Source: Candidatus Staskawiczbacteria bacterium (GTDB taxonomy: Bacteria > Patescibacteriota > Minisyncoccia > Minisyncoccales > Staskawiczbacteraceae). From it: a stretch of 64,000 nt of DNA. Made by a program: the position numbers and the translations under genes. Below the pieces are notes generated by a model. It did no database searches. It saw nothing but the letters and a program-made list of their open reading frames with translations, and had not been told where the DNA came from. Positions 23,707 through 56,914 of the stretch are shown one piece after another; the first letter of the stretch is position 1; each line of letters begins with the position of its first letter. Location: positions 608,148 to 672,147 of the forward strand of contig JBAZUH010000001.1 in NCBI GenBank assembly GCA_041661545.1, written 5' to 3'.

Positions 23707-23726
23707 AGGTTAACCATGGTTAACCT
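23707..23726. repeat. Palindrome P1 (AGGTTAAC-CATG-GTTAACCT)
   Basis: A perfect 20-nt palindrome lying 11 nt upstream of the ATG of Cys-rich paralog 1. Confidence 0.9.
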
Positions 23727-23737
23727 AAGAATAAGCT

Positions 23738-25453
23738 ATGGAAGAAAAAAGTGAAATCAAGGCATGTCAGAATTGTAAGAGCGAGTTTGTAATAGAGCCC
23801 GATGATTTTGCTTTTTATGAGAAAATGAAAGTGCCTGCGCCAACCTTTTGCCCCGAGTGCAGAACAATCAGGCGTATGACTTGGCGAAATGAGCGTACAC
23901 TCTATAAAAGAAAGTGTGATGCAACTGGCAAAGACATCATTACAATGTTTTCGCCCGAACAACCACTTGTGGTTTACGAAAGAGATTATTGGTGGTCTGA
24001 TAAATGGGACCAGCTTGCCACGGGCCTAGATTATGATTTCTCGAAGTCATTTTTTGAGCAGTTTAAAGAACTATTTGAAAAAGCTCCTTTGCCCAATTTA
24101 GCTAATTCTAATTGCGTAGATTCTGAATATGGAAACCACAATGCGCATTTAAAAAATTGTTATTTAGTGTATGCATCTTATGAGGGAGAAGATTTGTCAT
24201 ATTGCTCAGGAGCGCATAATTGTAAGAATTCTTTTGATTTATATATAGCCGGTAATGATGTGCAATGTTATGAGATTGCTATGGGTGGAGGTTTAAACAA
24301 AGTTTTTTTCTCATATGATAGCGATGAAAGTGTGAGCAGTGCTTTTTTGCATGCCTGTAAAAATGTAATAGACTCTTTGGGTTGTATAAATCTTCGCAAT
24401 AAATCTAATTGTATTTTTAATGAGCAATACACAAAAGAAGAATATTTAAAAGAACGGGCTAAATATGATTTTGGAAGCTATAGAGCAATCAACGATTTTA
24501 AAAAAAAGTTTGCTGAATTTATAAAGCAATTCCCTCGACGTCATGGTTTTACTCATAGGTCACAAAATTGTATTGGAAATATTATTTTCAACTCTAAAAA
24601 TTTATACATGTGCTTTGATATATATGGTAGGGTGGAAGATAGTAAATATGCCATTCATGGATTGGATGGGCAAGATATTTACGATGCTTATGGGTTTGGA
24701 GGAAATGCTAATAATTCTTACGAAGTTGTAGATACGGGCATTGAAGCCACGCGCAATCTTTTTGCTGTTTTTACGCACGCTAGCCAAAACACAAATTACA
24801 CTTATGCATGTCAGAATTCTAAAGATTTATTTGGATGCGTGGGGCTTAGAAACAAACAATATTGTATTTTGAATAAACAATATACTAAAGAAGAATACGA
24901 AGAACTTGTGCCCAAAATAATCCAACACATGAATGATATGCCTTATACAGATAAAAAGGGCAGGGTGTATAAATATGGTGAATTTTTTCCAGCCGAGCTT
25001 TCTCCGTTTGCATATAACGAAACTATAGCCCAAGAATATTATACAAAAACAAAACAAGAAATTTTAGATATTGGTTATAATTGGAAAGAGCCAGATGTAA
25101 AACAATATAAAATTACTATACAGCCAGAAGATTTACCAGACCATATAAAAGATGTTAAAGATGATATTTTAAATCAGGTTGTAGGTTGTGCTCATAAGGG
25201 AGAATGCAATGAGCAGTGTATGGGAGCTTTTAAAATTATTCCTTCAGAGCTTCAATTTTATAGAACAATGAATTTGGCTTTGCCAAGGTTATGTTCTAAT
25301 TGCAGGCATTATAATAGATTGCGACAACGAACTCCATTTAAGTTGTGGGATAGAAAATGTGCCAAGTGTGCAAAAGAAATTAAAACCTCTTACGCCCCAG
25401 ACAGGCCAGAAATAATTTATTGCGAGCAGTGCTACAATGCCGAAGTAGCTTAG
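23738..25453 (+). CDS. Uncharacterised Cys-rich multi-zinc-ribbon protein, paralog 1
   Basis: 571 aa with 27 Cys by my count. The N-terminal module is CQNCK..F.IEPDDFAFYEKMKVPAPTFCPECR..RR. The motif FGC(V/I)(G/N)LRNK..CI(F/L)N.QYTKEEY occurs twice internally. The C-terminal module is LCSNCRHY..R...W.RKCAKC...SYAPDRPEIIYCEQCYNAEVA. Confidence 0.85.
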   Translation: MEEKSEIKACQNCKSEFVIEPDDFAFYEKMKVPAPTFCPECRTIRRMTWRNERTLYKRKCDATGKDIITMFSPEQPLVVYERDYWWSDKWDQLATGLDYDFSKSFFEQFKELFEKAPLPNLANSNCVDSEYGNHNAHLKNCYLVYASYEGEDLSYCSGAHNCKNSFDLYIAGNDVQCYEIAMGGGLNKVFFSYDSDESVSSAFLHACKNVIDSLGCINLRNKSNCIFNEQYTKEEYLKERAKYDFGSYRAINDFKKKFAEFIKQFPRRHGFTHRSQNCIGNIIFNSKNLYMCFDIYGRVEDSKYAIHGLDGQDIYDAYGFGGNANNSYEVVDTGIEATRNLFAVFTHASQNTNYTYACQNSKDLFGCVGLRNKQYCILNKQYTKEEYEELVPKIIQHMNDMPYTDKKGRVYKYGEFFPAELSPFAYNETIAQEYYTKTKQEILDIGYNWKEPDVKQYKITIQPEDLPDHIKDVKDDILNQVVGCAHKGECNEQCMGAFKIIPSELQFYRTMNLALPRLCSNCRHYNRLRQRTPFKLWDRKCAKCAKEIKTSYAPDRPEIIYCEQCYNAEVA

Positions 25454-25476
25454 CAAAATTATAGCCAAGGCTTATT

Positions 25477-25496
25477 AGGTTGCCCACGGGCAACCT
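25477..25496. repeat. Palindrome P2 (AGGTTGCC-CACG-GGCAACCT)
   Basis: 8-bp arms and a 4-nt centre, 21 nt upstream of paralog 2. It is an identical 20-mer to P3. Confidence 0.9.
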
Positions 25497-25517
25497 GAGT
25501 AATTTAAGAAAAAAACA

Positions 25518-27227
25518 ATGGAATATAAATCAGAAAATAAAAATTGTCAGAATTGCAAAAAAGACTTTGAAATAGAGCCCGATGATTTTGCGTTTTATGA
25601 AAAAATGAAAGTACCAGCTCCAACATTTTGTTGGAAATGTAGGTTTCAAAGAAGGATGTCATATAGAAATGAGCGTAAGGCATTTTTTAATACCAGCTTA
25701 AAATCAGGTAAAAAAATCTTTTCTTTATATTCAAAGCAATCAAAAATTCCTATTTATAGCGATGACGAATGGCGCGAAGATGACTGGGATGCAATGCAAT
25801 ATGGTGTTGATTATGATTTTTCAAAACCATTTTTTGAGCAGTTTCATGATTTTTCCTTAACTGTGCCTCATTGGGGTACCTCGGGCGATATCGGCAATTT
25901 GAGATCAGAATTTATAGCTAATTCAGACTATGCCAAAGATTCATATCTTATATTTAATACAAGTCACATGGAGTCGAGTGCATATTGTAACGCATCTTTT
26001 CATTGCAGGGAAAGTTTTGATTCTACGAGTATAACCGATTGTGAGCGATCATATGAATTATTTTGGTCAATGAAATGTTATCGTACGTATTTTTCGTCTC
26101 AGTGTACTGACTGTACAAATGTTTTATTTTCAAAAAACTGTAAGGGGTGCGTAGATTGTTTTGGATGCGTTAATCTGCGCAACAAGTCACACCATATATT
26201 TAATGTTCCTTATTCTAAAGAAGAATATGAGGAAAAAGTGAAATCTTTCTTAATACATATGTTCAGCGGATGTACGGCCATTCAGAAAAAAGCTCATGAG
26301 TTTTGGCTTGGGTCTCCAGTAAAATATATGCAGGGTGTTAATAATGCAAATGTCTTAGGAGAATATATCTCTCATTCGCGCAATGTTTATATGGGGTATT
26401 TGGTTCAAGGGGGAGATAACCTTAGATATTGCCAGCATCAAACAGTTCCTGGGGCTAGTGATTCAATGGACATATCTGTTTGGGGGTCTCCAAATGAATT
26501 ATGTTATGAGAATACAACTTGTGGATATGGATGTTCTAATTCTAAATTTTGCGTAGAATGTTGGCCTGAAAATAGTAAACTGGAATACTGTATGTTTATG
26601 AAAAATTGTGCCGAATGTTTCGGGTGTTTCGGTTTGATTAACAAAAAATATTGTATATTTAATAAGCAATATAGTAAAGAAGATTATCAAAATATCGTTG
26701 AAAGAATAAAAAATCAAATGAATGAAATGCCTTATGTTGATAAAAAGGGCAGAGTGTATAAATATGGCGAGTTTTTTCCTATAGAATTGTCTCCATTTGA
26801 ATATAATACTTCTGTGGTAAACGAATATTTTCCTTTAACGCGAGAACAAGCCATAGAAGAAGGATATAGTTGGGATGATACGGCAAAAACAGAATACGAA
26901 GTTAACATAAGCGCAAATGAATTACCCGATTCAATAAAAGACGTTGAGGATGATATTATTTTAAAGCTAATCGCCTGCACTAATTGTAAAAGAGCGTATC
27001 GCATTATAAAACCCGAATTAGATTTTTTAAGGAAGGAAGGATTGCCGTTGCCAAGGTTGTGCGTTGATTGTCGATATGCAGAGAGAATTTCGCAGAGAAA
27101 TCAGGCTTTTTTATTTCATCGTCATTGTATGAAAGAAGGTTGCACTAATGAATTTGAAACATCTTACGCCCCAGACAGACCAGAAATAATTTATTGCGAG
27201 GCATGCTACAATCAAGAAGTCGCATAA
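25518..27227 (+). CDS. Uncharacterised Cys-rich multi-zinc-ribbon protein, paralog 2
   Basis: 569 aa with the same N-terminal, internal and C-terminal motifs as paralog 1. Confidence 0.85.
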   Translation: MEYKSENKNCQNCKKDFEIEPDDFAFYEKMKVPAPTFCWKCRFQRRMSYRNERKAFFNTSLKSGKKIFSLYSKQSKIPIYSDDEWREDDWDAMQYGVDYDFSKPFFEQFHDFSLTVPHWGTSGDIGNLRSEFIANSDYAKDSYLIFNTSHMESSAYCNASFHCRESFDSTSITDCERSYELFWSMKCYRTYFSSQCTDCTNVLFSKNCKGCVDCFGCVNLRNKSHHIFNVPYSKEEYEEKVKSFLIHMFSGCTAIQKKAHEFWLGSPVKYMQGVNNANVLGEYISHSRNVYMGYLVQGGDNLRYCQHQTVPGASDSMDISVWGSPNELCYENTTCGYGCSNSKFCVECWPENSKLEYCMFMKNCAECFGCFGLINKKYCIFNKQYSKEDYQNIVERIKNQMNEMPYVDKKGRVYKYGEFFPIELSPFEYNTSVVNEYFPLTREQAIEEGYSWDDTAKTEYEVNISANELPDSIKDVEDDIILKLIACTNCKRAYRIIKPELDFLRKEGLPLPRLCVDCRYAERISQRNQAFLFHRHCMKEGCTNEFETSYAPDRPEIIYCEACYNQEVA

Positions 27228-27232
27228 AAAAT

Positions 27233-28939
27233 ATGAATCAAGAATCTGAAAAAAAAATATGTCAGAACTGTAAGCAGGACTTTATTATAGAGCCCGATGA
27301 TTTTGCGTTTTATGAAAAAATGAAGGTGCCCACACCAACCTTTTGCCCCGAGTGCCGGTATATTCGGCGGCTTTTAGATAGAAATGAATATAATTTTTAT
27401 AAACGCAAATGTGACGCAACAGGAGAAAATATTATTTCTATTTATCGCCCAGAGGCGCCGTTTCCAGTTTATAAGCAGGAATATTGGAAGTCGGATGCTT
27501 TTGACGCCACTTCTTATGGCCGTGATTTTGATTTTTCAAAATCATTTTTTGAACAATATGAAGAGCTCCGCCGTGCAGTGCCACATTTAGCGCTTGTAAA
27601 TTCTAACAGCCCAAACAGTGAATATACAAATCAATCTGAAGACAATAAAGATTGTTATATGCTTGTCACTAGTGGCTCAAATGAAAAATGTATGTATGGA
27701 AGTTGGAATCAATCAAAATGTTTTTTTTGCTCTGATTGCTATATGATTGAGCAATGTGAATTTTGCTATGAATCAATTAATTTAACCAAATGTTCTCAAT
27801 GCGCCTTTGCATATGATTGTGCTGATTGTGTAAATGTCTATTTTTCTAAAAATTGTCGAGGTTGTATAAATTGTTTTGGATGCGTGGGTTTAAGAAATAA
27901 GCAGTATTGTTGGTTTAACCAACAATTAAGCAAAGAAGATTACAGTGAAAAAGTTAAACAATTTGGTTGGACTCGCGAGAGAATAAAAAGTGCTCAAAAA
28001 GATTTGGCAGAATTGCAAAACAACTTGCCAGTGAAATATTATCATGGGTCTAAAATTCAAAATTCCACTGGAGACTATTTAGAAAATACTCAGAGGGCAA
28101 GAGTAGCATTTAATTGTCGAGAAAATAAGGACACCTCATATATGCAGGACGCGTGGAACCAAACCGAAGACTGCCGTGATTGCACAGAAATTATTATTGG
28201 CGAGCTGGCATATGAAATTCAAGGAGTTGAAACACCTCATCGGACAATTGTGGCGCGAAGTTGTTTCGGAAGCATCATTGATTCTGCTTATTGCGATATG
28301 TGTTTTGGAGTTAGAAATTGTTTTGGCTGTTTTGGATTAAAGCAAAAAGAATATTGTATTTTAAATAAGCAATATACCAAAAGCGATTATTTAGAATTAA
28401 AAGAGAAGATTATAAGCTACACGAGAAAAACAGGTGAGTGGGGAGAATATTTTCCATCCAATGTTTCGCCGTTTTCTTATAACGAATCAATGGCACAGGA
28501 TTATTTTCCTTTAACAAAAGAAGAAGCTCTCAAAAAAGGTTATTCTTGGTACGATAAACCAGAAACTAATTATTCTATTACGTTAACATCTGATAAATTA
28601 CCAGCAACTATTAACGACACTCAAGATGAAATTGTAAAAGAAATTATTAAATGTAAAACGCAGGAGAATGACAAAGAAAAAAATGATAATCCTCTTTGCG
28701 TGGGAGCCTTTAAATTGACACCGCTCGAATTGATGCTTTATCGTAAACTAAATATTCCTGTACCAGAGTATTGTTTTCCTTGTCGCCGAACAAAACGCTT
28801 TATGTTGCGCAATCCTCGAAGATTATGGCACCGTCATTGTATGAAAGAAGGTTGCACTAATGAATTTGAAACTTCTTATGCTCCAGATAGACCCGAGATA
28901 GTATATTGCGAACAGTGTTACAATGCCGAGGTGGCATAA
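27233..28939 (+). CDS. Uncharacterised Cys-rich multi-zinc-ribbon protein, paralog 3
   Basis: The ATG at 27233 (MNQESEKKICQNCKQDF...) aligns with the other copies. The ORF-track start at 27194 overlaps paralog 2. Confidence 0.85.
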   Translation: MNQESEKKICQNCKQDFIIEPDDFAFYEKMKVPTPTFCPECRYIRRLLDRNEYNFYKRKCDATGENIISIYRPEAPFPVYKQEYWKSDAFDATSYGRDFDFSKSFFEQYEELRRAVPHLALVNSNSPNSEYTNQSEDNKDCYMLVTSGSNEKCMYGSWNQSKCFFCSDCYMIEQCEFCYESINLTKCSQCAFAYDCADCVNVYFSKNCRGCINCFGCVGLRNKQYCWFNQQLSKEDYSEKVKQFGWTRERIKSAQKDLAELQNNLPVKYYHGSKIQNSTGDYLENTQRARVAFNCRENKDTSYMQDAWNQTEDCRDCTEIIIGELAYEIQGVETPHRTIVARSCFGSIIDSAYCDMCFGVRNCFGCFGLKQKEYCILNKQYTKSDYLELKEKIISYTRKTGEWGEYFPSNVSPFSYNESMAQDYFPLTKEEALKKGYSWYDKPETNYSITLTSDKLPATINDTQDEIVKEIIKCKTQENDKEKNDNPLCVGAFKLTPLELMLYRKLNIPVPEYCFPCRRTKRFMLRNPRRLWHRHCMKEGCTNEFETSYAPDRPEIVYCEQCYNAEVA

Positions 28940-28945
28940 AATGTC

Positions 28946-28965
28946 AGGTTGCCCACGGGCAACCT
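28946..28965. repeat. Palindrome P3 (AGGTTGCC-CACG-GGCAACCT)
   Basis: It lies between the paralog 3 stop and the tatD ATG, 9 nt upstream of the latter. Confidence 0.9.
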
Positions 28966-28974
28966 AAAACAATT

Positions 28975-29790
28975 ATGATAATAGATACACACTCACATCT
29001 TAATTTTAAGGCGTATGATGCCGATAGGGCAGAGGTTATAAAGCGCACAAAAGAGGCGGGGGTTGTTTGCATTAATGTGGGCACAAAATATGAGACTTCA
29101 AAACATGCTGTTGAGTTAGCCGAAAAAAATGAGGATATGTATGCTGCAATTGGATTGCATCCAATTCATATTAAAACCGATTTAATGAAATTGCGCATGG
29201 ATTTGGACGAGGGAGGCTTTGCGCCACTTGGTGAAGAGTTTGATGCCGAAAGATATAAAGAGTTAGCGAAATCAAAAAAAGTTGTGGCAATTGGTGAAGT
29301 TGGTTTAGATTATTATTACAAACCAAAAGGCACGGCAAAGAAAGAAAAATTTAAACAATTGCAGAAAGAAATTTTTTTTAAACAATTACAAATGGCCGGC
29401 GAACTTAATTTGCCAGTGATTGTGCATTGCCGAGTTGCATATGGTGATGCTCATGAAATGTTAAACAGTCAAAATTTACAAGGAGTAATTCATTCTTTCA
29501 CGGGAACTATTGAAGAGGCAAAAAAATTTCTTGATTTGGGTTTTTACATTGGAGTTAACGGAATAATTTTTAAGCTTAGTTTAGACGAAGTTGTTAAAAG
29601 CATTCCTTTAGATAAAATTGTAGTTGAAACAGATTGTCCTTATCTCACGCCACCCCAAGCAGGAGCCGAGCGTAACGAACCAATTTTTGTAAAACATGTT
29701 ATTCAAAAAATAGCTGAGCTCAAAGGGCTAAGTTTTGAGGAGGTCGCACAGGCGACCACCGCCAACGCTCAAAAATTGTTTAAAATTTAG
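28975..29790 (+). CDS. tatD: TatD family metal-dependent hydrolase/DNase
   Basis: MIIDTHSHLNF... and VETDCPYLTP. The ORF-track extension back to 28906 only reads through the palindrome. Confidence 0.85.
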   Translation: MIIDTHSHLNFKAYDADRAEVIKRTKEAGVVCINVGTKYETSKHAVELAEKNEDMYAAIGLHPIHIKTDLMKLRMDLDEGGFAPLGEEFDAERYKELAKSKKVVAIGEVGLDYYYKPKGTAKKEKFKQLQKEIFFKQLQMAGELNLPVIVHCRVAYGDAHEMLNSQNLQGVIHSFTGTIEEAKKFLDLGFYIGVNGIIFKLSLDEVVKSIPLDKIVVETDCPYLTPPQAGAERNEPIFVKHVIQKIAELKGLSFEEVAQATTANAQKLFKI

Positions 29791-29879
29791 TAAAAATATC
29801 AAAAAATCGCCTAAAAGGGCGGTTTTTTGCTGGGGCTTTAAAAATAATGACAATATGCTATTATAAAGTTAATTATTTT

Positions 29880-33974: not shown

Positions 33975-34547
33975 ATGAATAATAAAACTTTTAATTTAAT
34001 TTTAACAGGGGTTGGTGGGCAAGGAATAATTACTTTATTACAAGTAATTGATGAAGCAGCGGTTGTTGAGGGGTTAGACGTAAAGTCATCTGAGCTTCAT
34101 GGTTTATCACAAAGAGGGGGAAGTGTTGAGGCACATGTAAGATTTGGTAAAAAAGTTTATTCTCCAATGGTGTCTAACGGGCAAGCAGATTTAATTTTAG
34201 CATTAGAAACTCTTGAAGGCTTAAGAGAATCAGCTAAGGCTGGTAAACAAACAAAACTTTTGGTTAATGAATATATCTTGCCATTAATGGGCGCTCCAGC
34301 AAAAGAAGAAATTATAAAACAATTAAAGGCCACACAAAATGATTTATATTTAGTGCCAGCTTCAGCTGATTGCAGAGAAAAGTTACAAAATGAAGTTGTT
34401 TGCACTTTGTATATGGTGGGGTATTCAGTTGCTAAAAAATTGATGCCATTGAAAAAAGAATCTGTATTAACTGCAATAAAAAATGTTATTCCTGAAAAAT
34501 ATTTAGATTTAAATATTAAAGCATTTGAATTAGGATATAATGGTTAA
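33975..34547 (+). CDS. iorB: Indolepyruvate oxidoreductase beta subunit-like
   Basis: LTGVGGQGIITL, and its position directly after iorA. Confidence 0.7.
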   Translation: MNNKTFNLILTGVGGQGIITLLQVIDEAAVVEGLDVKSSELHGLSQRGGSVEAHVRFGKKVYSPMVSNGQADLILALETLEGLRESAKAGKQTKLLVNEYILPLMGAPAKEEIIKQLKATQNDLYLVPASADCREKLQNEVVCTLYMVGYSVAKKLMPLKKESVLTAIKNVIPEKYLDLNIKAFELGYNG

Positions 34548-35292
34548 AAAAGTTATTATAGCTGTTGCGGGGCAAGGAACCCGTATGCAGGAACTGACAA
34601 AAGATAAATCAAAACATTTGATTGAAGTAAATGGTAAGCCATTTTTGTTTTATGTTTTAGATAATTTGACTAAAGCAGGCTATGATGATTTTACTCTAGT
34701 GGTGGGCTTTGAAGCAGAATTAATTAAAAAGTTTGTGGATGATTACGGTTTTAAAGTAAAGATTATCAATCAGTTTGAAATTTTAGGACCTAAAGAAAAA
34801 ATTTATGGAACCGCTTGCCCTTTAATGTGTGTAGAGAATACTCAAGAGTCATTTTTATATATTTCTGGTGATAATTTTTACTCGGTAGAAGATTTGAAAC
34901 AAGCTAATATTGATGACGAATTTAACTATATTTTTGGCGCAGAAAGTATGCATCCGGAAGACTTTGGGGTTTTGGTGCCCTTCGACTTGGCTCAGGGCAG
35001 GCCCGGCGGTGAATTTTTGAAAGAAATTGTTGAAAAACCTAGGTTGCCCATGGGCAACCTGATTAATGTAAGTTTGTATAAGTTTACGCCAGAAATTTTT
35101 AAAAAAATATCTCAAATAGAAAAATCATCTCGCGGAGAGTACGAAATTACAGATGCGGTTTCTTTATTGGCTCAAGAAAAAAAGGTTAAGATAAAAAAAA
35201 TGAAGGGCTTTTGGATAGACTTTGGTAGGCCTGAAGATGTTAAAAAACTAGAAGATTTTCTAAATGGAAATAATAAAGAAGAACAAAAATAA
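34540..35292 (+). CDS. Sugar-1-phosphate nucleotidyltransferase
   Basis: AVAGQGTRMQELTKDKSKHLIEVNGKP and EKP..P..NLIN..LYKF. Confidence 0.75.
   Translation: MVKKVIIAVAGQGTRMQELTKDKSKHLIEVNGKPFLFYVLDNLTKAGYDDFTLVVGFEAELIKKFVDDYGFKVKIINQFEILGPKEKIYGTACPLMCVENTQESFLYISGDNFYSVEDLKQANIDDEFNYIFGAESMHPEDFGVLVPFDLAQGRPGGEFLKEIVEKPRLPMGNLINVSLYKFTPEIFKKISQIEKSSRGEYEITDAVSLLAQEKKVKIKKMKGFWIDFGRPEDVKKLEDFLNGNNKEEQK
34976..35011. repeat. GC-rich mini-element, in frame (copy I4)
   Basis: gtgcccttcgacttggctcagggcaggcccggcggtg encodes VPFDLAQGRPGG. Its first 23 nt match the ybeY copy at 21 of 23 positions. Confidence 0.75.
35041..35060. repeat. Palindrome P4 (AGGTTGCC-CATG-GGCAACCT) inside a CDS
   Basis: A perfect 20-nt palindrome with the same arms as P2 and P3. 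It encodes RLPMGNL of the nucleotidyltransferase. Confidence 0.9.
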
Positions 35293-39023: not shown

Positions 39024-39106
39024 TGCCGGAGGAGGGACTTGAACCCTCAAGATCTTTCGATCGCGGGATTTTGAGTCCCGTGCGTTTGCCATTTCACCAC
39101 TCCGGC
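39024..39106 (-). tRNA. tRNA-Leu (anticodon CAA), class II with long variable arm
   Basis: A hand-folded cloverleaf. Acceptor GCCGGAG/CTCCGGC+A, anticodon stem CGGGA/TCCCG with loop CTCAAAA, variable arm GATC-gaaa-GATC, and T-arm GAGGG-TTCAAGT-CCCTC. CCA is not encoded. Confidence 0.9.
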
Positions 39107-48709: not shown

Positions 48710-48742
48710 ATATTAATTAAATAAATAAAATTAAAAAATAAT

Positions 48743-48961: not shown

Positions 48962-49004
48962 AATATAGAATTTGGTATATAGAAGCTGGAATAAATAAAA
49001 AAAT

Positions 49005-49397
49005 ATGGAAACCGGCTCAGCAAATAAGATTCAAAAATTTACAGATTTGTATGCTTGGCAAGAAGGCCATAAGTTGGTTTTGATGATTTATAAAGAAACA
49101 GATAAGTTCCCCGACAAAGAAAGATATAGTATTATTGATCAAATGCGTAGGGCGGTAGTTTCTGTAACCTCTAATATAGCAGAAGGTTTTTCACGAAAGT
49201 CTTCAAAAGAAAAAAATAGATTCTACTGCATGGCTCAAGCGTCATTGGTGGAATTACAAAATCAATTGATTATTTCGAGAGACGTGGGCTATTTATTAAA
49301 TAGTGAATTTAAAAAAATCGCTGACCAATCTATAACAACTAGTAAGCTTTTAAGCGGTCTTTTAAGGGCAACAAAAGATAAAAAATTTGAAGTTTAA
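49005..49397 (+). CDS. Four-helix-bundle protein (23S rRNA intervening-sequence protein family)
   Basis: FTDLYAWQEGHKLVLMIYKETDKFPDKERYSIIDQMRRAVVSVTSNIAEGFSR. Confidence 0.8.
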   Translation: METGSANKIQKFTDLYAWQEGHKLVLMIYKETDKFPDKERYSIIDQMRRAVVSVTSNIAEGFSRKSSKEKNRFYCMAQASLVELQNQLIISRDVGYLLNSEFKKIADQSITTSKLLSGLLRATKDKKFEV

Positions 49398-49439
49398 TTT
49401 TATTCAAGCTACAAGATACTAAATTCAAGATTCAAAATC

Positions 49440-49937: not shown

Positions 49938-49940
49938 ATT

Positions 49941-49966
49941 AAACCGCCTTTGGGCGGTTTTTGTTT
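49941..49966 (+). terminator. Intrinsic terminator
   Basis: AAACCGCC-tttg-GGCGGTTTTTGTTTT. Confidence 0.75.
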
Positions 49967-49994
49967 TATTTGAAAAATGGTGTAAAATATAGTA

Positions 49995-50588: not shown

Positions 50589-51043
50589 AGATTGAAATAA
50601 ATAATTTAACTGGGCATCCTATATTGAGCCGAGCTGTGGATAAAAAGATTTTTTCCACAGTTGCAAAAATCGTATTAAAAGGCGAAAATAGAAAAACAGA
50701 AACATTATCTTTGGCATTTGTAAGTAAAAGCGAGATAAAAAAACTTAATAAAAAATTTCGTAAAAAGAATAAAGCTACAGATGTTCTTTCATTTGAGTTA
50801 GATGTGCCCTTCGGCTTCGCTCAGGGTAAAAACAAGTTTTTAGGGGAAATTATAATTTGCCCAGAAGTTGTTAGAGATAATGCTAAAAAATATAATATTT
50901 CAGTAAAGCAAGAAATGACTAAAATGCTTATCCATGGAATACTTCATTTGTGTGGATATGACCATGAGAAGTCGAAAAAGGATGAGAAAATAATGGAAGA
51001 AAAACAAGAAAAATATTTAGCTGAAATTAACCCGGTTAAATAA
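50585..51043 (+). CDS. ybeY: rRNA maturation endoribonuclease YbeY
   Basis: HGILHLCGYDHE zinc motif and TDVLSF. Confidence 0.9.
   Translation: MKIEINNLTGHPILSRAVDKKIFSTVAKIVLKGENRKTETLSLAFVSKSEIKKLNKKFRKKNKATDVLSFELDVPFGFAQGKNKFLGEIIICPEVVRDNAKKYNISVKQEMTKMLIHGILHLCGYDHEKSKKDEKIMEEKQEKYLAEINPVK
50804..50826. repeat. GC-rich mini-element, in frame inside ybeY (copy I7)
   Basis: gtgcccttcggcttcgctcaggg encodes VPFGFAQG. It matches copy I4 at 21 of 23 positions. Confidence 0.75.
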
Positions 51044-51098
51044 AATCCAAAGGATTTTAATTTTGTAAAACAAAATTATTTAACTGGGTAAAAATAAT

Positions 51099-52319: not shown

Positions 52320-52334
52320 AAGGATAAAATTTTT

Positions 52335-53258
52335 ATGCAACCAATTATCAAAGTTATAGGAATAGGCGGGTCTGGATCAAATACAGTATCTAGAATGGAA
52401 AAGTTCCAGATGCAAGGAGTTGAATTATTGGCATTAAATACAGATGCTCAAGCATTGCATTTTTCAAAGAGTCATAAGAAGATTTTAATTGGAAAAGAAA
52501 CTACTAAAGGGCTTGGTACTGGAATGGATGCTGGATTGGGTGCAAAGTCAGCAGAAGAATCTAAACAAGAAATTTTAGAAAACTTAAAAGGGGCTGATAT
52601 GATTTTTTTGACTTGTGGTTTGGGTGGTGGCACTGGCTCTGGGGCCTCACCAATTGTTGCCGAGATTTCAAAAAGTCTTGGCATTTTAACTATAGGAGTG
52701 GTTACAACGCCTTTTTCTTTTGAGGGCCAAGAAAGAAAAAAAATTGCTGTTGAAGCAATTAAAAAATTAAAAGAAAGCGTTGACTCATTGCTTGTGATTT
52801 CTAATGATAAGCTTTTAAAAATTATTGATGAAAAAACTACAGTATCAGAAGCATTTTTAATTTGTGACGATGTTTTAAGAGAGGCAGTGCAATCTATTAC
52901 AGATTTAATTTTAGTTCCTGGAATTATAAATATTGATTTTGCTTCAGTTGTGTCGGTTTTAAAAAATTCTGGTCATGCGCTTTTTGGTGCTGGAAAATCT
53001 TCTGGAGAAAATAGAGCAGTTGTAGCTGCAGAAAAAGCTATTAGTTCTCCTTTGTTAGATTTTTCTATTCAAGGATCAAAAGGTGTTTTATTTTCTGTTT
53101 CTGGGATAGATGTTACTTTAAATGAAATTCAAGAAGCCGCAAAAGTTATTACTAAAAATGTTGATTCTAGGGCAGAAATAATTTTTGGTGCAGTTAAAGA
53201 CAACACTTTAAAGAAAGGCGAATTAAAAATTACCGTTATTGCCACAAAATTAGTATAA
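52335..53258 (+). CDS. ftsZ: Cell division protein FtsZ (core only, 307 aa)
   Basis: GIGGSGSNTV and the tubulin signature GGGTGSGASP. The protein ends right after the globular core. Confidence 0.92.
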   Translation: MQPIIKVIGIGGSGSNTVSRMEKFQMQGVELLALNTDAQALHFSKSHKKILIGKETTKGLGTGMDAGLGAKSAEESKQEILENLKGADMIFLTCGLGGGTGSGASPIVAEISKSLGILTIGVVTTPFSFEGQERKKIAVEAIKKLKESVDSLLVISNDKLLKIIDEKTTVSEAFLICDDVLREAVQSITDLILVPGIINIDFASVVSVLKNSGHALFGAGKSSGENRAVVAAEKAISSPLLDFSIQGSKGVLFSVSGIDVTLNEIQEAAKVITKNVDSRAEIIFGAVKDNTLKKGELKITVIATKLV

Positions 53259-53275
53259 ATTATCAAATAAAGTGT

Positions 53276-53304
53276 AAAAATACGGCTTATAGTCGTATTT
53301 TTTG
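53276..53304 (+). terminator. Possible AT-rich terminator after ftsZ
   Basis: AAAAATACG-gcttatagt-CGTATTTTT. Confidence 0.35.
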
Positions 53305-53356
53305 TTGAAACAGAGCAAAATAAAGTTATCCACAGGTTCTATATATGAAATAGGAT

Positions 53357-53384
53357 TTGACACGACCGTTGGTTGGGGTAAAAT
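53357..53384 (+). promoter_or_regulatory. Sigma-70-like promoter candidate for nrdD
   Basis: TTGACA (53357..53362), a 16-nt spacer, then TAAAAT (53379..53384). A consensus DnaA box TTATCCACA lies at 53326..53334. Confidence 0.5.
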
Positions 53385-53546
53385 ACAGTAATCGACAATA
53401 GTTTTTAATATTAATTAATTTTTTGAAGAAAGGCATTTTAATAGATTTGCTGTTTGTAAACTTTTAAGTCAAAATTTCTAAACAGCAGGTTAAATTAAGA
53501 GCAATGTCTTTTTTTTGTCCCTGCCTGCGTAGGTAGGCCCAATTTT

Positions 53547-55718
53547 ATGTCAGAAGAAACAAAAAAAATGGAAAATCATATAGAAAAAGTTCGTAAAAGA
53601 GATGGTAGGGTAGTTGATTTTGAGCAAGAAAAAATTGCTGAAGCTGTTCACAAAGCTGTGGTTGCAACAAATCAGGGAAATGGCCCAGAATCTAAAAGGG
53701 TTTCTGATAAAGTTGTTGTATTAATGAATCGCAGGTTTAAAAAGGAAGAAATTCCAACTATTGAGCAAATTCAAAATATTGTTGAGGAAGCCTTAATGCT
53801 AGAAGGATTAGTTGAAACTGCCAAAGCATATGTTTTATATAGAGAGCAAAGAAGATCAATACGTGAAGCTACAAAAGCAACTGATGATTCTTCAGAAAAA
53901 GTAGATAGTTATCTAAAAGAAATTGATTGGCAAGTAAAAGAAAATGCCAACATGACTTTTTCTTTGCAAGGATTAAACCAATATGTTGGTTCATATATTT
54001 CAAAAAAATATTGGTTAAATAAAATTTATCCAAAAGAAATAAGAGACGCAGCATTAAGTGAAGACTTTCATATTCACAATTTAGAATTATTAGCTCCTTA
54101 TTGCGCCGGATGGGATTTGTATGACTTTTTAGTAAAAGGCTTTGGCGGTGTTTCTGGAAAAATAGAGTGTAGGGCTCCTAAACATTTTAGGACCGCATTA
54201 GGTCAATTGGTGAATGTTTTATTTACTTTACAAGGAGAAACAGCTGGAGCAAACGCTGTTTCTAATTTTGATACTCTTTTAGCTCCATTTATTAGATATG
54301 ACAAGCTAGATTATAAGCAAGTAAAACAATCTATGCAGGAATTTTTATATAACTGTATGGTGCCAACTAGGGTAGGCTTTCAAACGCCATTTTTAAATGT
54401 TTCTTTAGATATTAAAGCGCCATCATTTTTGGCAAAACAGCCTGTAATTATTGGAGGAGAGCCACAAAACGAAACTTATGGAGACTTTCAACCAGAAATG
54501 GATATGTTTATCAGGGCTTTTTATGAAGGCTTAATGGAGGGTGATGCCTCGGGCAGGCCATTTACATTTCCAATTCCAACAGTTTCGATTACTAAAGATT
54601 TTGAGTGGGATAATCCAAATTTAAATGCAATGTGGGAAGCAACAGCAAAATATGGGATTAATTATTTTTCAAACTTTATTCAGTCTGATATGAGTCCAGA
54701 TGATGCAAGATCAATGTGTTGCAGATTGAGGCTTGATAACAGAGAGTTATATAAAAGAGGCGGGGGATTGTTTGGTTCTTCTCCTAAAACAGGTTCAATT
54801 GGAGTGGTCACAATTAATTTGCCAAGAATTGGATATACTTCAAAAACAAAAACAGAGTTTTTTGAAAAATTAACAAGATTAATGGAGTTAGCTAAAGAAA
54901 GTTTAGAAATTAAGAGAAAGGCTTTAGATGACTTTATGGAAAAAGGACTTTACCCATATTCAAGGCATTATTTAGAAGAAATGAAAAAAATGAGAAATAC
55001 TTATTTTGGAAATCATTTTTCTACAATTGGAATTATGGGCATGAATGAAGCTTTGATGAACTTTTTGGAAGAAGATATTACAACTCCTAAAGGAAAAAAG
55101 TTTGCACTTGAAGTTTTAGATTTCATGAGAGATAAAATGATTCAATTTCAAGAAGAAACCGGCAATTTGTTTAATTTAGAAGCAACCCCAGGAGAAGGAA
55201 CAAGTTATAGGCAAGCAAGAACAGATAGAGAAAAATATCCAGATATTGTTACTTCTGGAACAAAAGAAGTTCCTTATTATACAAACTCAAGCCAATTGCC
55301 CGTAGGTTTTACAGATGATATTTTTGAAGCCCTAGATTTGCAAAATGATTTGCAAACAAAATATACTGGCGGAACTGTATTACATATATTTTTAGGAGAA
55401 AAAGTTTCTGACCCAAATATGGCAAAAGCTTTGGTTAAGAAGATTTGTGAAAATTATAGCTTGCCATATATTACACTAACTCCAACATTTTCAATTTGCC
55501 CAACACATGGATATATTTCTGGAGAACACTTTGAATGCCCTCAATGTACTATAAAACAACCCTGTGAGGTGTATAGTAGGGTTGTGGGGTACATTAGGCC
55601 TGTTCAGCAATGGCACAAAGGTAAAAAGCAAGAGTTTGAAGAAAGAAAAGAATTTGCCTTTCCCGAAGAAAAAACCAATGGAGTTCTGACAAAAATGGAA
55701 GAAAAAACAGCCGTATAA
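53547..55718 (+). CDS. nrdD: Anaerobic ribonucleoside-triphosphate reductase (class III)
   Basis: N-terminal ATP-cone VRKRDGRVVDFEQEKI, C-terminal zinc site CPTHG...CPQC, and glycyl-radical motif RVVGYIRPV. Confidence 0.93.
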   Translation: MSEETKKMENHIEKVRKRDGRVVDFEQEKIAEAVHKAVVATNQGNGPESKRVSDKVVVLMNRRFKKEEIPTIEQIQNIVEEALMLEGLVETAKAYVLYREQRRSIREATKATDDSSEKVDSYLKEIDWQVKENANMTFSLQGLNQYVGSYISKKYWLNKIYPKEIRDAALSEDFHIHNLELLAPYCAGWDLYDFLVKGFGGVSGKIECRAPKHFRTALGQLVNVLFTLQGETAGANAVSNFDTLLAPFIRYDKLDYKQVKQSMQEFLYNCMVPTRVGFQTPFLNVSLDIKAPSFLAKQPVIIGGEPQNETYGDFQPEMDMFIRAFYEGLMEGDASGRPFTFPIPTVSITKDFEWDNPNLNAMWEATAKYGINYFSNFIQSDMSPDDARSMCCRLRLDNRELYKRGGGLFGSSPKTGSIGVVTINLPRIGYTSKTKTEFFEKLTRLMELAKESLEIKRKALDDFMEKGLYPYSRHYLEEMKKMRNTYFGNHFSTIGIMGMNEALMNFLEEDITTPKGKKFALEVLDFMRDKMIQFQEETGNLFNLEATPGEGTSYRQARTDREKYPDIVTSGTKEVPYYTNSSQLPVGFTDDIFEALDLQNDLQTKYTGGTVLHIFLGEKVSDPNMAKALVKKICENYSLPYITLTPTFSICPTHGYISGEHFECPQCTIKQPCEVYSRVVGYIRPVQQWHKGKKQEFEERKEFAFPEEKTNGVLTKMEEKTAV

Positions 55719-55721
55719 TTT

Positions 55722-55752
55722 AAAAGCCGCCTTTTAACTAAGGCGGTTTTTT
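55722..55752 (+). terminator. Intrinsic terminator after nrdD
   Basis: AAAAGCCGCCTT-ttaact-AAGGCGGTTTTTT. Confidence 0.75.
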
Positions 55753-55779
55753 AGTATAATCAAACTGTGATAGTCTTTC

Positions 55780-55803
55780 TCAGGTTACCATACGGTAACC
55801 TGA
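55780..55803. repeat. Palindrome P5 (TCAGGTTACC-ATAC-GGTAACCTGA)
   Basis: 10-bp arms. It lies between the nrdD terminator and the methyltransferase gene. Confidence 0.9.
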
Positions 55804-55843
55804 CAGTAGGCGTGACATGAGAAGTATAAGTAAAAAATAAAAA

Positions 55844-56611
55844 ATGAATTATATACAAAAAGTAAAACAGGACAGCATTGATGAATTTAGCTCGGAAGTA
55901 ACTCGCGAAAGGTATAAAAGAGATGCAAATGCGGGATTTTGGGAGAGCGAGGAAAATTTAATTAAAAAATATTTTACATTAAATTCAAAAATACTTGATA
56001 TAGGGTGTGGCTCTGGGAGGACGACTTTTCCTATGTTTAAAATGGGCTATTCGGTGGTAGGCGTTGATATAACACCCATGATGATTGATATTGCTAAAGA
56101 AAATGCAAAAGCTCAAAAGTTGGATATTAAATTTCTTGGAGGTGACGCAACCAGTTTAGATTTTGAAGACAATATTTTTGATGGTGCTATTTTTGCAAAT
56201 AATGGCTGGGCGCAAATTCCGGGTAAACAACAACGACAGAAGGCTTTAAATGAAATCTACAGGGTTCTAAAGCCTGGTGGAATTTATATTTTTACTGCTC
56301 ACAAAAGATATTATTCATTAAATAATTTCCTATTTTGGTTAAGTAAAAGAATCTTTAAGGATGGTGCAATAGACTTTGGCGATGTGTTTTTTAGAAGATA
56401 TGCTGAAGGTAAAAAGTTAAAGCAAAAACAGTTTTTACACCTTTCTAGCGTGAATGAAGTAAAACAACAAATTTCCAAGGCTGGATTTCACTTGGTGGAT
56501 TTTAAAAGGATGGGGGAATTGTCAAAAAAAGATGCTGAATCAAGAAGAGCGTCTTTGTGGAACGGGTTTGATTCGTTCAAATCTCCAATTTTTTATGTTT
56601 GTAAAAAATAG
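55844..56611 (+). CDS. Class I SAM-dependent methyltransferase
   Basis: ILDIGCGSGRTTFPM motif I and LKPGGIYIF. I saw no (D/N)PP(Y/F) DNA-methylase motif. Confidence 0.8.
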   Translation: MNYIQKVKQDSIDEFSSEVTRERYKRDANAGFWESEENLIKKYFTLNSKILDIGCGSGRTTFPMFKMGYSVVGVDITPMMIDIAKENAKAQKLDIKFLGGDATSLDFEDNIFDGAIFANNGWAQIPGKQQRQKALNEIYRVLKPGGIYIFTAHKRYYSLNNFLFWLSKRIFKDGAIDFGDVFFRRYAEGKKLKQKQFLHLSSVNEVKQQISKAGFHLVDFKRMGELSKKDAESRRASLWNGFDSFKSPIFYVCKK

Positions 56612-56653
56612 TTTAAAGGGGTTTTTTATTTCAAAACTATAGTAGATTTTGTT

Positions 56654-56673
56654 AGGTTACCGTATGGTAACCT
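56654..56673. repeat. Palindrome P6 (AGGTTACC-GTAT-GGTAACCT)
   Basis: It is the exact reverse complement of the P5 20-mer core. It lies 8 nt upstream of the HTH gene ATG. Confidence 0.9.
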
Positions 56674-56681
56674 GAAATAAA

Positions 56682-56873
56682 ATGTCAAAGATAATAATAG
56701 AAAAAGATTTTTATACAACAATCGAAATGGCTAAAGAGTCGGGCATTAGCAAGGTGTCTGTGCTTAAACGAATTTGGCGGGGGAATATAAAAGCTCTCAA
56801 AATGGGTAGAAATTTTATAATCTTTAAAAAGGATGTTAACATAAAAAAGTTGATTTTAGATATTCAAAAATAG
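56682..56873 (+). CDS. Excisionase-family/MerR-like helix-turn-helix DNA-binding protein
   Basis: 63 aa. YTTIEMAKESGISKVSVLKRIWRGNIKALKMGRNFIIFKKD matches the excisionase-type HTH pattern. Confidence 0.65.
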   Translation: MSKIIIEKDFYTTIEMAKESGISKVSVLKRIWRGNIKALKMGRNFIIFKKDVNIKKLILDIQK

Positions 56874-56890
56874 AAAGCATCAAAAACAAC

Positions 56891-56914
56891 TCAGGTTACC
56901 ATATGGTAACCTGA
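56891..56914. repeat. Palindrome P7 (TCAGGTTACC-ATAT-GGTAACCTGA)
   Basis: A perfect 24-nt palindrome upstream of paralog 4. Confidence 0.9.

What the first reader, a model, noticed from the sequence alone, without database searches (positions are those of the whole stretch)
23707..56914. Palindrome family AGGTTNNC-N4-GNNAACCT with compensatory arm changes, placed 8-42 nt upstream of start codons
I found seven copies:
- P1 23707..23726: AGGTTAAC-CATG-GTTAACCT
- P2 25477..25496 and P3 28946..28965: AGGTTGCC-CACG-GGCAACCT, identical 20-mers
- P4 35041..35060: AGGTTGCC-CATG-GGCAACCT
- P5 55780..55803, P6 56654..56673 and P7 56891..56914: AGGTTACC arms

Positions 6 and 7 of the arm differ between loci (AA, GC, AC), but the partner arm always changes with them. 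Dyad symmetry or hairpin formation is therefore what is being conserved.

The P6 core is the exact reverse complement of the P5 core (centre GTAT versus ATAC), so the methyltransferase gene is flanked by inverted copies.

Six of the seven copies sit immediately upstream of genes in the two insertions, including tatD at one junction. Possible roles are an operator for a dimeric regulator, an mRNA 5' or intercistronic hairpin, or a recombination or cassette-boundary site analogous in logic to integron attC or REP elements.
Basis: seen in the sequence. Interest (0 to 1): 0.7.

Follow-up and report, generated by a model that had tools for sequence, protein, structure and literature searches.

The report
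Operator palindromes of a small HTH regulator
The seven 20-base palindromes are real and are most likely DNA docking sites for a tiny helix-turn-helix regulator encoded among them; the matched changes in the two arms reflect the protein's specificity rather than RNA folding, so this is a neat but ordinary kind of gene switch in an uncultivated bacterium.

Summary
Seven exact AGGTTNNC-N4-GNNAACCT sites occur where about 0 are expected, and none has one mismatch. Six lie 8-42 nt upstream of start codons. P4 lies inside a nucleotidyltransferase gene.

The window comes from a Candidatus Staskawiczbacteria (CPR) chromosome. In relatives and metagenomes the palindrome occurs again and again as a pair flanking a 58-68 aa HTH_17/excisionase-family winged-helix gene (window 56682-56873).

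Across 37 distinct HTH proteins, the arm class (AAC, ACC, GCC, GTC, ATC, GTT) partitions exactly with the sequence of the predicted recognition helix. Residue 25 is I/V/M when arm base 6 is A, and Q when it is G. Two classes coexist in one genome, each beside its own HTH.

Within a class the arms are fixed while the centre and flanks vary. Symmetry often runs through the centre. In one class the site lies just upstream of a conserved extended -10 box, so it is not transcribed there.

The best explanation is therefore a two-fold symmetric operator bound by the adjacent HTH. The 'compensatory' arm changes are shifts in protein specificity.

An RNA hairpin role and a cassette-recombination role are not excluded, but both are less well supported.

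This is a new member of a known kind, of moderate interest.

The parts
23707..23726 (.). P1, AAC-class palindrome AGGTTAACCATGGTTAACCT, 11 nt upstream of Cys-rich paralogue A (23738-25453)
25477..25496 (.). P2, GCC-class palindrome AGGTTGCCCACGGGCAACCT, 21 nt upstream of Cys-rich paralogue B (25518-27227)
28946..28965 (.). P3, GCC-class palindrome identical to P2, 9 nt upstream of tatD (28975-29790) and 6 nt after the stop codon of Cys-rich paralogue C
35041..35060 (.). P4, GCC-class perfect 20-bp palindrome inside the NTP_transferase ORF (34540-35292). It encodes RLPMGNL. It is not an insertion: the segment aligns without gaps to EKPEIPPSNLIN of solved homologues, and the right arm is the codons of the conserved G-N-L.
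55780..55803 (.). P5, ACC-class 24-nt palindrome TCAGGTTACCATACGGTAACCTGA, 42 nt upstream of the methyltransferase gene (55844-56611). It lies 19 nt downstream of a TATAAT (55755-55760) that follows the nrdD terminator.
56654..56673 (.). P6, ACC-class palindrome and reverse complement of the P5 core, 8 nt upstream of the HTH gene
56682..56873 (+). Gene for the 63-aa HTH_17/excisionase-family winged-helix protein (P0185, WC711_03610), the proposed binder. Its predicted recognition helix is residues 24-33 (SKVSVLKRIW).
56891..56914 (.). P7, ACC-class perfect 24-nt palindrome, 17 nt after the HTH stop codon (to the 24-mer; 19 nt to its 20-nt core) and 18 nt upstream of Cys-rich paralogue D (56933-58654; 20 nt from the core). 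A -10-like TATAAA (56921-56926) lies 6 nt before the ATG (inferred).

Best explanation
Each palindrome is a two-fold symmetric DNA operator for a small stand-alone winged-helix protein (58-68 aa, HTH_17/excisionase family, MerR-like fold). In the window this protein is encoded at 56682-56873, between P6 and P7.

Two protomers are proposed to bind the half-sites TCAGGTT-x-x-C head to head. The recognition helix would read arm bases 6-7. The central 4 bp would not be read base by base, but they favour flexible alternating pyrimidine-purine steps.

The protein would thereby control its own gene and the gene downstream of each site: the Cys-rich ~570-aa paralogues, the methyltransferase, tatD, and in relatives nrdG, YraN/UPF0102, gltX and gatB.

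Paralogous HTH classes with different recognition-helix residues use different arm classes. This is why both arms always change together.

Shown here:
- physical linkage of the sites to the HTH gene;
- the correspondence between arm class and helix sequence;
- coexistence of two classes within one genome;
- the position of the site relative to a conserved -10 box in one class.

Inferred, not shown:
- actual binding and the stoichiometry;
- the direction of control. I guess repression, because the site overlaps the -35/spacer region (about -41 to -18) in the GCC class and lies at or just after the likely transcription start elsewhere.
- that P1-P4 (AAC and GCC arms) are served by other HTH paralogues encoded outside the window.
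For: 1. Linkage. The metagenome loci were retrieved by the palindrome alone, yet the site repeatedly occurs as a pair about 230-250 nt apart flanking a ~63-aa ORF. This ORF is a homologue of the window HTH. Of 33 distinct HTH genes, 32 have a site within 75 nt upstream and 29 have one just downstream.

2. Co-restriction. Neither the palindrome nor the HTH occurs in about 1.2 Mb of other Paceibacteria loci that carry the Cys-rich gene. Both occur only in Staskawiczbacteria-like loci.

3. Specificity code. Arm class partitions perfectly with the recognition-helix sequence:
- AAC with ISR[IVM]SVFKRVRQGS
- ACC with ISKVSVLKRIWRGN
- GCC with ISKQSVLKRIGRGN
- GTC with IS[KR]QSVLKR..[NG]GS
- ATC with ISRVAVLKRINRGA
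. Residue 25 gives a normalised mutual information of 1.0 with arm base 6: I/V/M with A in 21 proteins, Q with G in 16. The AlphaFold model puts residue 25 at the start of helix 24-33.

4. Same genome, two classes. On one 844,674-bp contig, an AAC-type HTH is flanked by AAC sites (L313) and a Q/GTC-type HTH is flanked by GTC sites (L314).

5. Sequence constraint, not only pairing. Among 107 perfect sites in distinct contexts, the arms are invariant within each class, while the centre takes 21 different tetranucleotides (reverse complements merged) and the flanks are unconserved.

6. Symmetry through the centre. 12 of 34 unique 20-mers are self-complementary across the centre, against 6% expected. 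An RNA loop neither needs nor allows this.

7. Promoter position. In at least nine GCC-class loci (plus the GTT/GCT locus L303) the site is followed by GA(G/A)GTGATATAAT, often then N5-ATG. This is an extended -10 box 7 nt after the site, so the site is upstream of the transcription start there. Strong -10-like hexamers cluster 4-8 nt downstream of sites: 21 of 89 oriented sites, against 2 in the mirrored upstream control.

8. Fold. The predicted structure is beta-alpha-alpha-beta-beta-alpha (pLDDT 82). Its best matches are the RacA-DNA complex, the MerR-type HiNmlR, BldC, Pukovnik Xis and RdfS. RacA binds 14-bp inverted repeats as a symmetric dimer (PMC12266134).

9. Location. 93 of 124 sites have an ORF start within 70 nt, with a mode at 8 nt. 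Only 2 of 105 perfect sites fall inside a long ORF.
Against: - No binding data exist.
- About 84% of sites are perfect over 8-bp arms. That is unusually clean for natural operators and is what a hairpin-forming element would look like.
- In the window itself P5 lies downstream of a good TATAAT, and P1-P3 are intercistronic. These copies are probably transcribed and would fold stably, at -9 to -20 kcal/mol.
- The class-to-helix correspondence rests on few independent evolutionary events, roughly 5-6 classes. It is partly confounded by co-inheritance of a gene with its flanking sites.
- Some loci carry a different arm class just downstream of an HTH: L218 has GCC upstream and GTC downstream, and L250/L265 have AAC and then AAT.
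- No AAC- or GCC-type HTH from the window's own 737,971-bp contig turned up in two protein searches. Retrieval was incomplete, though: the window's own HTH was missed too.
- The window HTH scores below the Pfam and TIGRFAM cut-offs.
Confidence: 0.72

Rival explanations
1. The palindromes act as RNA hairpins in 5' leaders or between cistrons. Possible roles are mRNA stabilisers, RNase III or other processing sites, or translational elements. On this view the arm covariation is true compensatory evolution.
For: - All copies fold into 8-12 bp stems of -9 to -20 kcal/mol, with z-scores of -2.5 to -6.8.
- Six of the seven window copies lie between co-directional genes, 8-42 nt before start codons.
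- P5 lies about 20 nt downstream of a TATAAT.
- 84% of sites are perfect palindromes.
- Several imperfect sites carry G.U-compatible mismatches on the sense strand: L001, L075, L274 and L059.
Against: - The arms are invariant within each HTH class over 55-70% protein identity, whereas pairing alone would allow drift.
- The centre is often self-complementary, leaving no loop, and shows no tetraloop motifs.
- Sites in L303 have asymmetric half-sites (GCT, GTC, GTT against a constant AAC). These give C.A mismatches on the sense strand yet keep the half-site consensus.
- Wobble-type mismatches show no strand bias: about 4 on the sense strand and 3 on the antisense strand.
- GCC-class sites lie upstream of a conserved extended -10 box and so are outside that transcript.
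- No Rfam family matches.
- There is no T-run on the sense strand, so the sites are not intrinsic terminators.
Confidence: 0.1
2. The palindromes are recombination or cassette-boundary sites. On this view [palindrome + gene] modules, including palindrome-HTH-palindrome, are gained, lost and reordered by recombination at the palindromes. The excisionase-like HTH would act as a directionality or architectural factor.
For: Module content differs between relatives exactly at palindromes:
- The window has nrdD-P5-MTase-P6-HTH-P7-Cys-nrdG. L001 lacks the MTase module but keeps the same outer flanks. L287 has the order Cys-HTH-nrdG.
- L309 has palindrome-HTH-palindrome between a Cys-rich gene and gltX, where L306 has only a decayed single site.

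Further points:
- Closely related HTH genes sit in many different housekeeping contexts.
- The protein belongs to the excisionase family.
- A Phage_integrase gene lies about 2 kb from the HTH in L309.
- Many metagenome contigs end at a palindrome.
Against: - The 64-kb window encodes no integrase, transposase or RAYT.
- The sites are 20-24 bp perfect palindromes. They are not 57-141 bp imperfect attC structures, and they lack the REP GTAG head.
- The correspondence between arm class and helix, and the fixed position relative to a -10 box, are what regulation predicts.
- Reshuffling can be a passive by-product of 24-bp repeats that are direct and inverted at the same time.
- The gene clusters themselves are old and conserved.
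Confidence: 0.1
3. The palindrome is a selfish, REP- or MITE-like short repeat that spreads in intergenic DNA with no regulatory role. On this view the HTH association is hitch-hiking.
For: - The repeat is multi-copy and clade-restricted, with near-identical copies inside one genome (P2 = P3).
- One copy (P4) lies in a coding region, as seen for some palindromic elements.
- Contigs break at the sites.
Against: - P4 is not an insertion. It fits gap-free into a conserved motif.
- The sites hold tightly constrained positions 3-45 nt before start codons.
- The correspondence between arm class and helix occurs within one genome.
- No transposase was found.
- There are no target-site duplications or longer element bodies. 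The conserved unit is only 20-24 bp.
Confidence: 0.05

Closest known systems
RacA of Bacillus subtilis (MerR-like winged helix; PDB 5i44)
   Same: RacA is the best structural match to the predicted HTH: TM 0.64, probability 1.0, though the E-value is weak at 0.03. It has a small MerR-like DNA-binding domain without an effector domain. It binds a short inverted repeat as a symmetric dimer (PMC12266134, citing Schumacher 2016).
   Different: RacA is a chromosome-anchoring protein with a long coiled-coil tail and a GC-rich 14-bp site. Here the protein is 58-68 aa and the site is 20-24 bp. The sites flank the protein's own gene and sit at gene starts, which points to transcription control. Sequence identity is only about 20%.
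BldC of Streptomyces and the excisionase (Xis/RDF) family: Pukovnik Xis, RdfS, D29 Gp36
   Same: These are stand-alone ~55-70 aa MerR-like/excisionase winged helices with the same fold and the same HTH_17/TIGR01764 family signal. BldC and Gp36 are transcription regulators rather than recombination factors (PMC5859096, PMC12266134).
   Different: BldC, Xis, RdfS and Gp36 assemble head to tail on direct repeats. Here the sites are strict inverted repeats, which implies head-to-head binding. No partner integrase is present in the window.
Classical MerR-family operators (e.g. HiNmlR, SoxR, MtaN)
   Same: The DNA-binding fold is the same. These proteins use palindromic operators that lie inside the promoter spacer. 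In the GCC class the site spans about -41 to -18 of an extended -10 promoter.
   Different: The HTH here has no coiled-coil dimerisation helix and no effector domain. The operator is not bracketed by a 19-20 bp -35/-10 spacer, and the site position relative to the start codon varies from 3 to 68 nt.
Integron attC sites and REP/BIME elements
   Same: Both are short palindromic repeats at gene boundaries in co-oriented gene arrays, with conserved outer bases, variable inner bases and symmetric changes. Gene modules differ between strains at the sites.
   Different: The sites here are too short and too perfect for attC, with no extrahelical bases and no IntI. They have no GTAG head and no RAYT, so they are not REP. 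The arm sequence tracks an adjacent DNA-binding protein.

Membership tests
Operator of a two-fold symmetric HTH transcription factor | Dyad-symmetric DNA site with conserved half-sites | tested here: met
   The half-site TCAGGTTxxC is conserved. 104 of 125 sites are perfect over 8-bp arms, and symmetry often extends through the centre.
Operator of a two-fold symmetric HTH transcription factor | Cognate DNA-binding protein encoded next to the sites (autoregulatory layout) | tested here: met
   The HTH gene is flanked by sites in 29-32 of 33 distinct loci. In the window, P6 and P7 flank 56682-56873.
Operator of a two-fold symmetric HTH transcription factor | Site sequence co-varies with the protein's recognition residues | tested here: met
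   Six arm classes partition perfectly with the recognition-helix sequence. Residue 25 is I/V/M with A6 and Q with G6. Two classes occur in one genome. Caveat: the number of independent events is small.
Operator of a two-fold symmetric HTH transcription factor | Fixed position relative to core promoter elements | tested here: inconclusive
   The position is clear for GCC-class HTH promoters, where the site is followed by 7 nt and then TGATATAAT. There is enrichment of -10-like hexamers 4-8 nt downstream. For the window's own copies the generic promoter scan found no more than in shuffled sequence, and the positions differ.
Operator of a two-fold symmetric HTH transcription factor | Direct, sequence-specific binding and an effect on transcription | not testable with these tools
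   This needs EMSA or footprinting and reporter or transcript assays.
HTH_17 / excisionase-family DNA-binding domain (PF12728, TIGR01764) | Profile match above the curated cut-off | tested here: inconclusive
   The window protein scores 21.0 bits against a cut-off of 27 for PF12728, and 22.3 against 28.8 for TIGR01764. A GCC-class relative scores 32.5, above 28.8. Most database relatives carry a precomputed PF12728 annotation.
HTH_17 / excisionase-family DNA-binding domain (PF12728, TIGR01764) | MerR-like winged-helix fold (beta-alpha-alpha-beta-beta wing) | tested here: met
   The AlphaFold2 model has pLDDT 82 with elements E10-12, H13-20, H24-33, E38-41, E44-48 and H54-62. The top Foldseek hits are RacA, HiNmlR, BldC, Xis and RdfS with probability 0.98-1.0, although E-values are only about 0.03-0.1.
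Integron attC site | 57-141 bp imperfect palindrome (R''-L''...L'-R') with extrahelical bases | tested here: not met
   The conserved unit is a 20-24 bp palindrome, mostly perfect, and the flanks are unconserved.
Integron attC site | Associated IntI tyrosine recombinase | tested here: not met
   No Phage_integrase hit was found in any window ORF of 110 aa or more. One unrelated integrase lies about 2 kb away in L309.
REP/BIME elements with RAYT | Conserved GTAG head, extragenic position mostly at 3' ends, and a RAYT (IS200/IS605-like) transposase in the genome | tested here: not met
   There is no GTAG head. The sites sit 3-45 nt before start codons. No Y1 transposase is present in the window. 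The whole genome was not available.
Intrinsic terminator | GC-rich stem followed by a T-run on the transcribed strand | tested here: not met
   On the + (sense) strand the stems are followed by GA-rich or A-rich sequence. The terminator-like calls at P1, P3 and P7 are on the - strand only.
Structured cis-regulatory RNA (any Rfam family) | Match to a curated covariance model; compensatory changes independent of protein class | tested here: not met
   The only Rfam hits in the window are tmRNA and one tRNA. The arm changes are class-linked and do not drift freely.

The most novel reading that the evidence does not exclude
The palindrome-HTH-palindrome unit, and more generally each [palindrome + gene] module, may be a mobile, self-regulated promoter/operator cassette. 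It would be inserted, deleted, inverted or reordered inside housekeeping operons of these reduced genomes by recombination at the palindromes. The excisionase-family HTH would double as the site-recognition or directionality factor. This would amount to a minimal, integrase-independent or trans-acting cassette system in CPR bacteria.
Probability: 0.1. Interest if true: 0.75.

Novelty: new member of a known kind. Interest (0 to 1): 0.4.

Why it matters
Almost nothing is known about transcription control in CPR/Patescibacteria, which cannot be grown alone and have very few regulators.

This work yields a concrete regulator-operator pair that can be tested. It comes with a natural series of specificity variants: one helix residue tracks one operator base, and at least five further classes exist. 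It also predicts a small regulon that includes the very abundant but uncharacterised Cys-rich ~570-aa protein family and genes next to nrdD/nrdG and metG/tatD.

The result is a caution as well. Symmetric 'compensatory' changes in a palindrome do not by themselves indicate RNA or DNA hairpin selection. Paralogous symmetric dimers produce the same pattern.

The specificity series could serve as orthogonal repressor/operator pairs. The apparent leaderless promoters and the reshuffling of modules at the sites deserve follow-up.

Tried and rejected
- Exact look-ups of the window's Cys-rich protein D and of P0056 returned nothing. The rest of the 737,971-bp genome could therefore not be read, and a genome-wide map for this organism was not possible.
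I used it only as a rough null.
- A general survey of hairpins in 78 Paceibacteria loci found no other shared palindrome upstream of Cys-rich genes.
- Searches with GCC-type and AAC-type HTH queries found no paralogue on the window's contig. This is inconclusive, because the word-based retrieval also missed the window's own HTH, which is in the database.
- A sequence search of the HTH against the PDB gave only spurious matches to designed TIM barrels. The fold search was needed.
- Generic sigma-70 promoter scans around the window sites found no more than in shuffled sequence.
- I looked for an NTP_transferase orthologue among the fetched loci to date P4 and found none. Alignment to solved homologues showed instead that P4 is not an insertion.
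- I considered an SD-sequestering hairpin (AGGU pairing with ACCU) and rejected it, because the 5' arm lies 28-60 nt from the start codons.
- I considered a role as a -35/-10 promoter element. TTGCCC/TTAACC in the left arm and TAACCT in the right arm could serve, but the evidence is insufficient.
- Two literature searches for this motif or system in Patescibacteria returned nothing.

Full report
**1. The observation**

The pattern AGGTTNNC-N4-GNNAACCT occurs seven times in the window, at exactly the coordinates given, against 0.00 expected from shuffles. The looser pattern AGGTT-N10-AACCT returns the same seven. No copies have one mismatch, so this is a discrete family.

Arm bases 6-7 are AA (P1), GC (P2-P4) or AC (P5-P7), and the partner arm is always complementary. 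P2 equals P3, and P6 is the reverse complement of P5. P5 and P7 extend to TCAGGTT...AACCTGA.

Six copies lie 8-42 nt before start codons. P4 lies in frame inside a nucleotidyltransferase gene.

**2. Context**

The window is a housekeeping stretch of a Candidatus Staskawiczbacteria (CPR/Paceibacteria) chromosome, from a contig of 737,971 bp. The gene order around the sites is as follows:
- metG, a 543-aa unknown, P1, Cys-rich A, P2, Cys-rich B, Cys-rich C, P3, tatD, leuS.
- nrdD, P5, methyltransferase, P6, a 63-aa HTH_17 protein, P7, Cys-rich D, nrdG, comEC.

These are not recent insertions. Distant relatives also have metG-Cys-tatD(-leuS). Close relatives keep HTH and Cys-rich genes between nrdD and nrdG.

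The window contains no integrase or transposase. Its only Rfam hits are tmRNA and one tRNA.

**3. Relatives**

Among 78 genome loci retrieved through the Cys-rich protein (1.2 Mb), the palindrome occurs only in three Staskawiczbacteria loci.

A metagenome-wide scan with TCAGGTTRMC-N4-GKYAACCTGA returned 99 loci. Of 110 matches, 90 are fully complementary at the free arm positions, where 25% would be expected if the arms were independent. Nearly all of the complementary ones lie on low-GC contigs of this clade.

**4. The key finding**

In these loci the palindromes often come in pairs about 230-250 nt apart, bracketing a ~63-aa ORF. This ORF is a homologue of the window's HTH.

Of 33 distinct HTH proteins, 32 have a site within 75 nt upstream and 29 have one just downstream. 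HMM searches find this HTH only in loci that also carry the palindrome.

The arm class sorts perfectly with the HTH sequence:

| Arm class | Recognition-helix region |
|---|---|
| AAC | ISR[IVM]SVFKRVRQGS |
| ACC | ISKVSVLKRIWRGN |
| GCC | ISKQSVLKRIGRGN |
| ATC | ISRVAVLKRINRGA |
| GTC | IS[KR]QSVLKR..[NG]GS |
| GTT/GCT | an ISRQ...VRTGRDY variant |

The GTC class comes from four further variants that I fetched deliberately.

Residue 25 predicts arm base 6 without exception: I/V/M with A in 21 proteins and Q with G in 16. Residues 28, 32 and 35 track base 7.

The AlphaFold2 model (pLDDT 82) is a beta-alpha-alpha-beta-beta-alpha winged helix, with residue 25 at the start of helix 24-33. Its best structural matches are the RacA-DNA complex, the MerR-type HiNmlR, BldC, Pukovnik Xis and RdfS.

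On a single 844,674-bp contig, an AAC-type HTH sits among AAC sites and a GTC-type HTH sits among GTC sites. The classes are therefore paralogous systems within one genome, not drift of a genome-wide motif.

**5. DNA operator or RNA hairpin?**

If transcribed, the sites would fold stably at -9 to -20 kcal/mol. Some window copies probably are transcribed: P5 lies about 20 nt after a TATAAT, and P1-P3 are intercistronic.

Five observations nevertheless favour DNA recognition:

(i) Within a class the arms are invariant across 55-70% protein identity, while the central four bases take 21 forms and the flanks are unconserved. Pairing alone would let the arms drift.

(ii) 12 of 34 unique 20-mers are self-complementary right through the centre, and most of the others are one change away. 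The centres are dominated by alternating pyrimidine-purine steps. This suits a bendable operator centre, not an RNA loop.

(iii) The sites in L303 keep the half-site consensus but are asymmetric (GCT, GTC, GTT against a constant partner), which breaks pairing.

(iv) Wobble-type mismatches show no strand bias, at about four sense and three antisense.

(v) In at least nine GCC-class loci (plus the GTT/GCT locus L303) the site upstream of the HTH gene is followed by GA(G/A)GTGATATAAT. In several of them ATG follows five bases later. This is an extended -10 box of an apparently leaderless mRNA. It places the site at about -41 to -18, outside the transcript. Strong -10-like hexamers cluster 4-8 nt after sites, 21 of 89 against 2 in the mirrored control.

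A symmetric dimer whose specificity changes demands the same change in both half-sites. That explains the 'compensatory' pattern without any hairpin.

**6. P4**

The intragenic copy is not an insertion. EKP-RLPMGNL-IN aligns without gaps to EKPEIPPSNLIN and EKPKLYVGNKIN in solved homologues.

Its right arm is the codons of the conserved G-N-L, and the left arm recodes a variable tripeptide. It may have arisen by short-patch conversion from a P2/P3-like site, from which it differs by one base. Alternatively it may be a selected internal site. I could not decide between these, because no orthologue was available among the fetched loci.

**7. The cassette idea**

Modules do differ between relatives exactly at palindromes:
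- L001 lacks the methyltransferase module but keeps the same outer flanks.
- L287 has the order Cys-HTH-nrdG.
- L309 has palindrome-HTH-palindrome between a Cys-rich gene and gltX, where L306 has only a decayed site.

Because each site is its own reverse complement, two copies are direct and inverted repeats at the same time. Passive recombination could therefore delete, invert or reorder the modules.

With no recombinase in the window and no attC or REP anatomy, I treat this as a side effect. A dedicated mobility mechanism remains a 10% possibility.

**8. What remains open**

- Binding, stoichiometry and the direction of control are all inferred.
- The cognate regulators of P1-P4 (AAC and GCC arms) were not found. 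Two protein searches saw no such paralogue from this contig, but retrieval was demonstrably incomplete.
- The high proportion of perfect palindromes is unusual for operators.
- Some loci place a different arm class just downstream of an HTH.

**9. Verdict**

The hairpin inference drawn from covariation is not supported. The system is a new, uncharacterised member of the MerR-like/excisionase small winged-helix regulators, with RacA-like inverted-repeat recognition (PMC12266134, PMC5859096). Two literature searches found no prior description. Interest is moderate.

Noticed in passing
window 8777-8806: A perfect 30-bp palindrome, CATGCCAGAAGAAATATTTCTTCTGGCATG, lies inside the isoleucyl-tRNA synthetase ORF (8130-11012). 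It is the longest perfect palindrome in the window and is unrelated in sequence to the AGGTT family.
   Followed up: no
window 23738-25453, 25518-27227, ~27233-28939, 56933-58654: There are four paralogues of a ~570-aa Cys-rich protein, with weak treble-clef zinc-finger matches at both ends and internal CxxC...FGC...NK repeats. The database holds more than 7,900 homologues across Paceibacteria, and no Pfam family matches. The gene is conserved between metG and tatD, and between nrdD and nrdG. Arrays reach eight paralogues in L314. Function is unknown.
   Followed up: partly
L235, L244, L268, L299, L285, L303 (upstream of HTH genes); window 56921-56935: GCC-class HTH genes have TGATATAAT followed by 5 nt and then ATG, with no Shine-Dalgarno sequence. 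The window's Cys-rich D has TATAAA-N6-ATG. This suggests that leaderless mRNAs may be common in this clade.
   Followed up: partly
L001 2300-2700; L287 2400-4600; L309 1190-3230 vs L306 11660-11800: Gene modules bounded by palindromes are present, absent or reordered between related genomes. Examples are the MTase module, the Cys/HTH order, and the HTH module next to gltX. L306 keeps only a decayed site, TTGGGTTAATATATGATAATCTGA.
   Followed up: partly
L204, L207, L223, L241, L259, L262, L271, L273 and other loci: Many metagenome contigs end within about 100 nt of a palindrome. Many HTH-bearing contigs are only 0.5-3 kb long. This suggests that assemblies break at these repeats.
   Followed up: no
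L221, L231, L232, L236, L245, L248, L251, L257, L259 and others (GC 0.26-0.29): An unrelated conserved element, TCAGGTTACCCGAAGTTAACCTGA (or its reverse complement with a TTCG centre), recurs on very AT-rich contigs. It matched the scan pattern by chance resemblance and was not identified.
   Followed up: no
L213, L240, L209, L265, L313 (downstream of the HTH gene): In several AAC-class loci the gene after the second palindrome is a UPF0102/YraN-like small endonuclease-fold protein (MAEHNFVGKIGEDLA...). It is a recurrent member of the putative regulon.
   Followed up: no
window 3839-4186 (-), 39024-39106 (-), 49005-49397 (+): The window also holds tmRNA, one tRNA, and a gene for a 23S rRNA intervening-sequence protein (PF05635).
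   Followed up: no
L303 10198-10424: Three GTT/GTC-type sites spaced about 103 nt apart lie in a G-rich non-coding stretch downstream of a GCC-like HTH gene, with no obvious ORFs between them.
   Followed up: no
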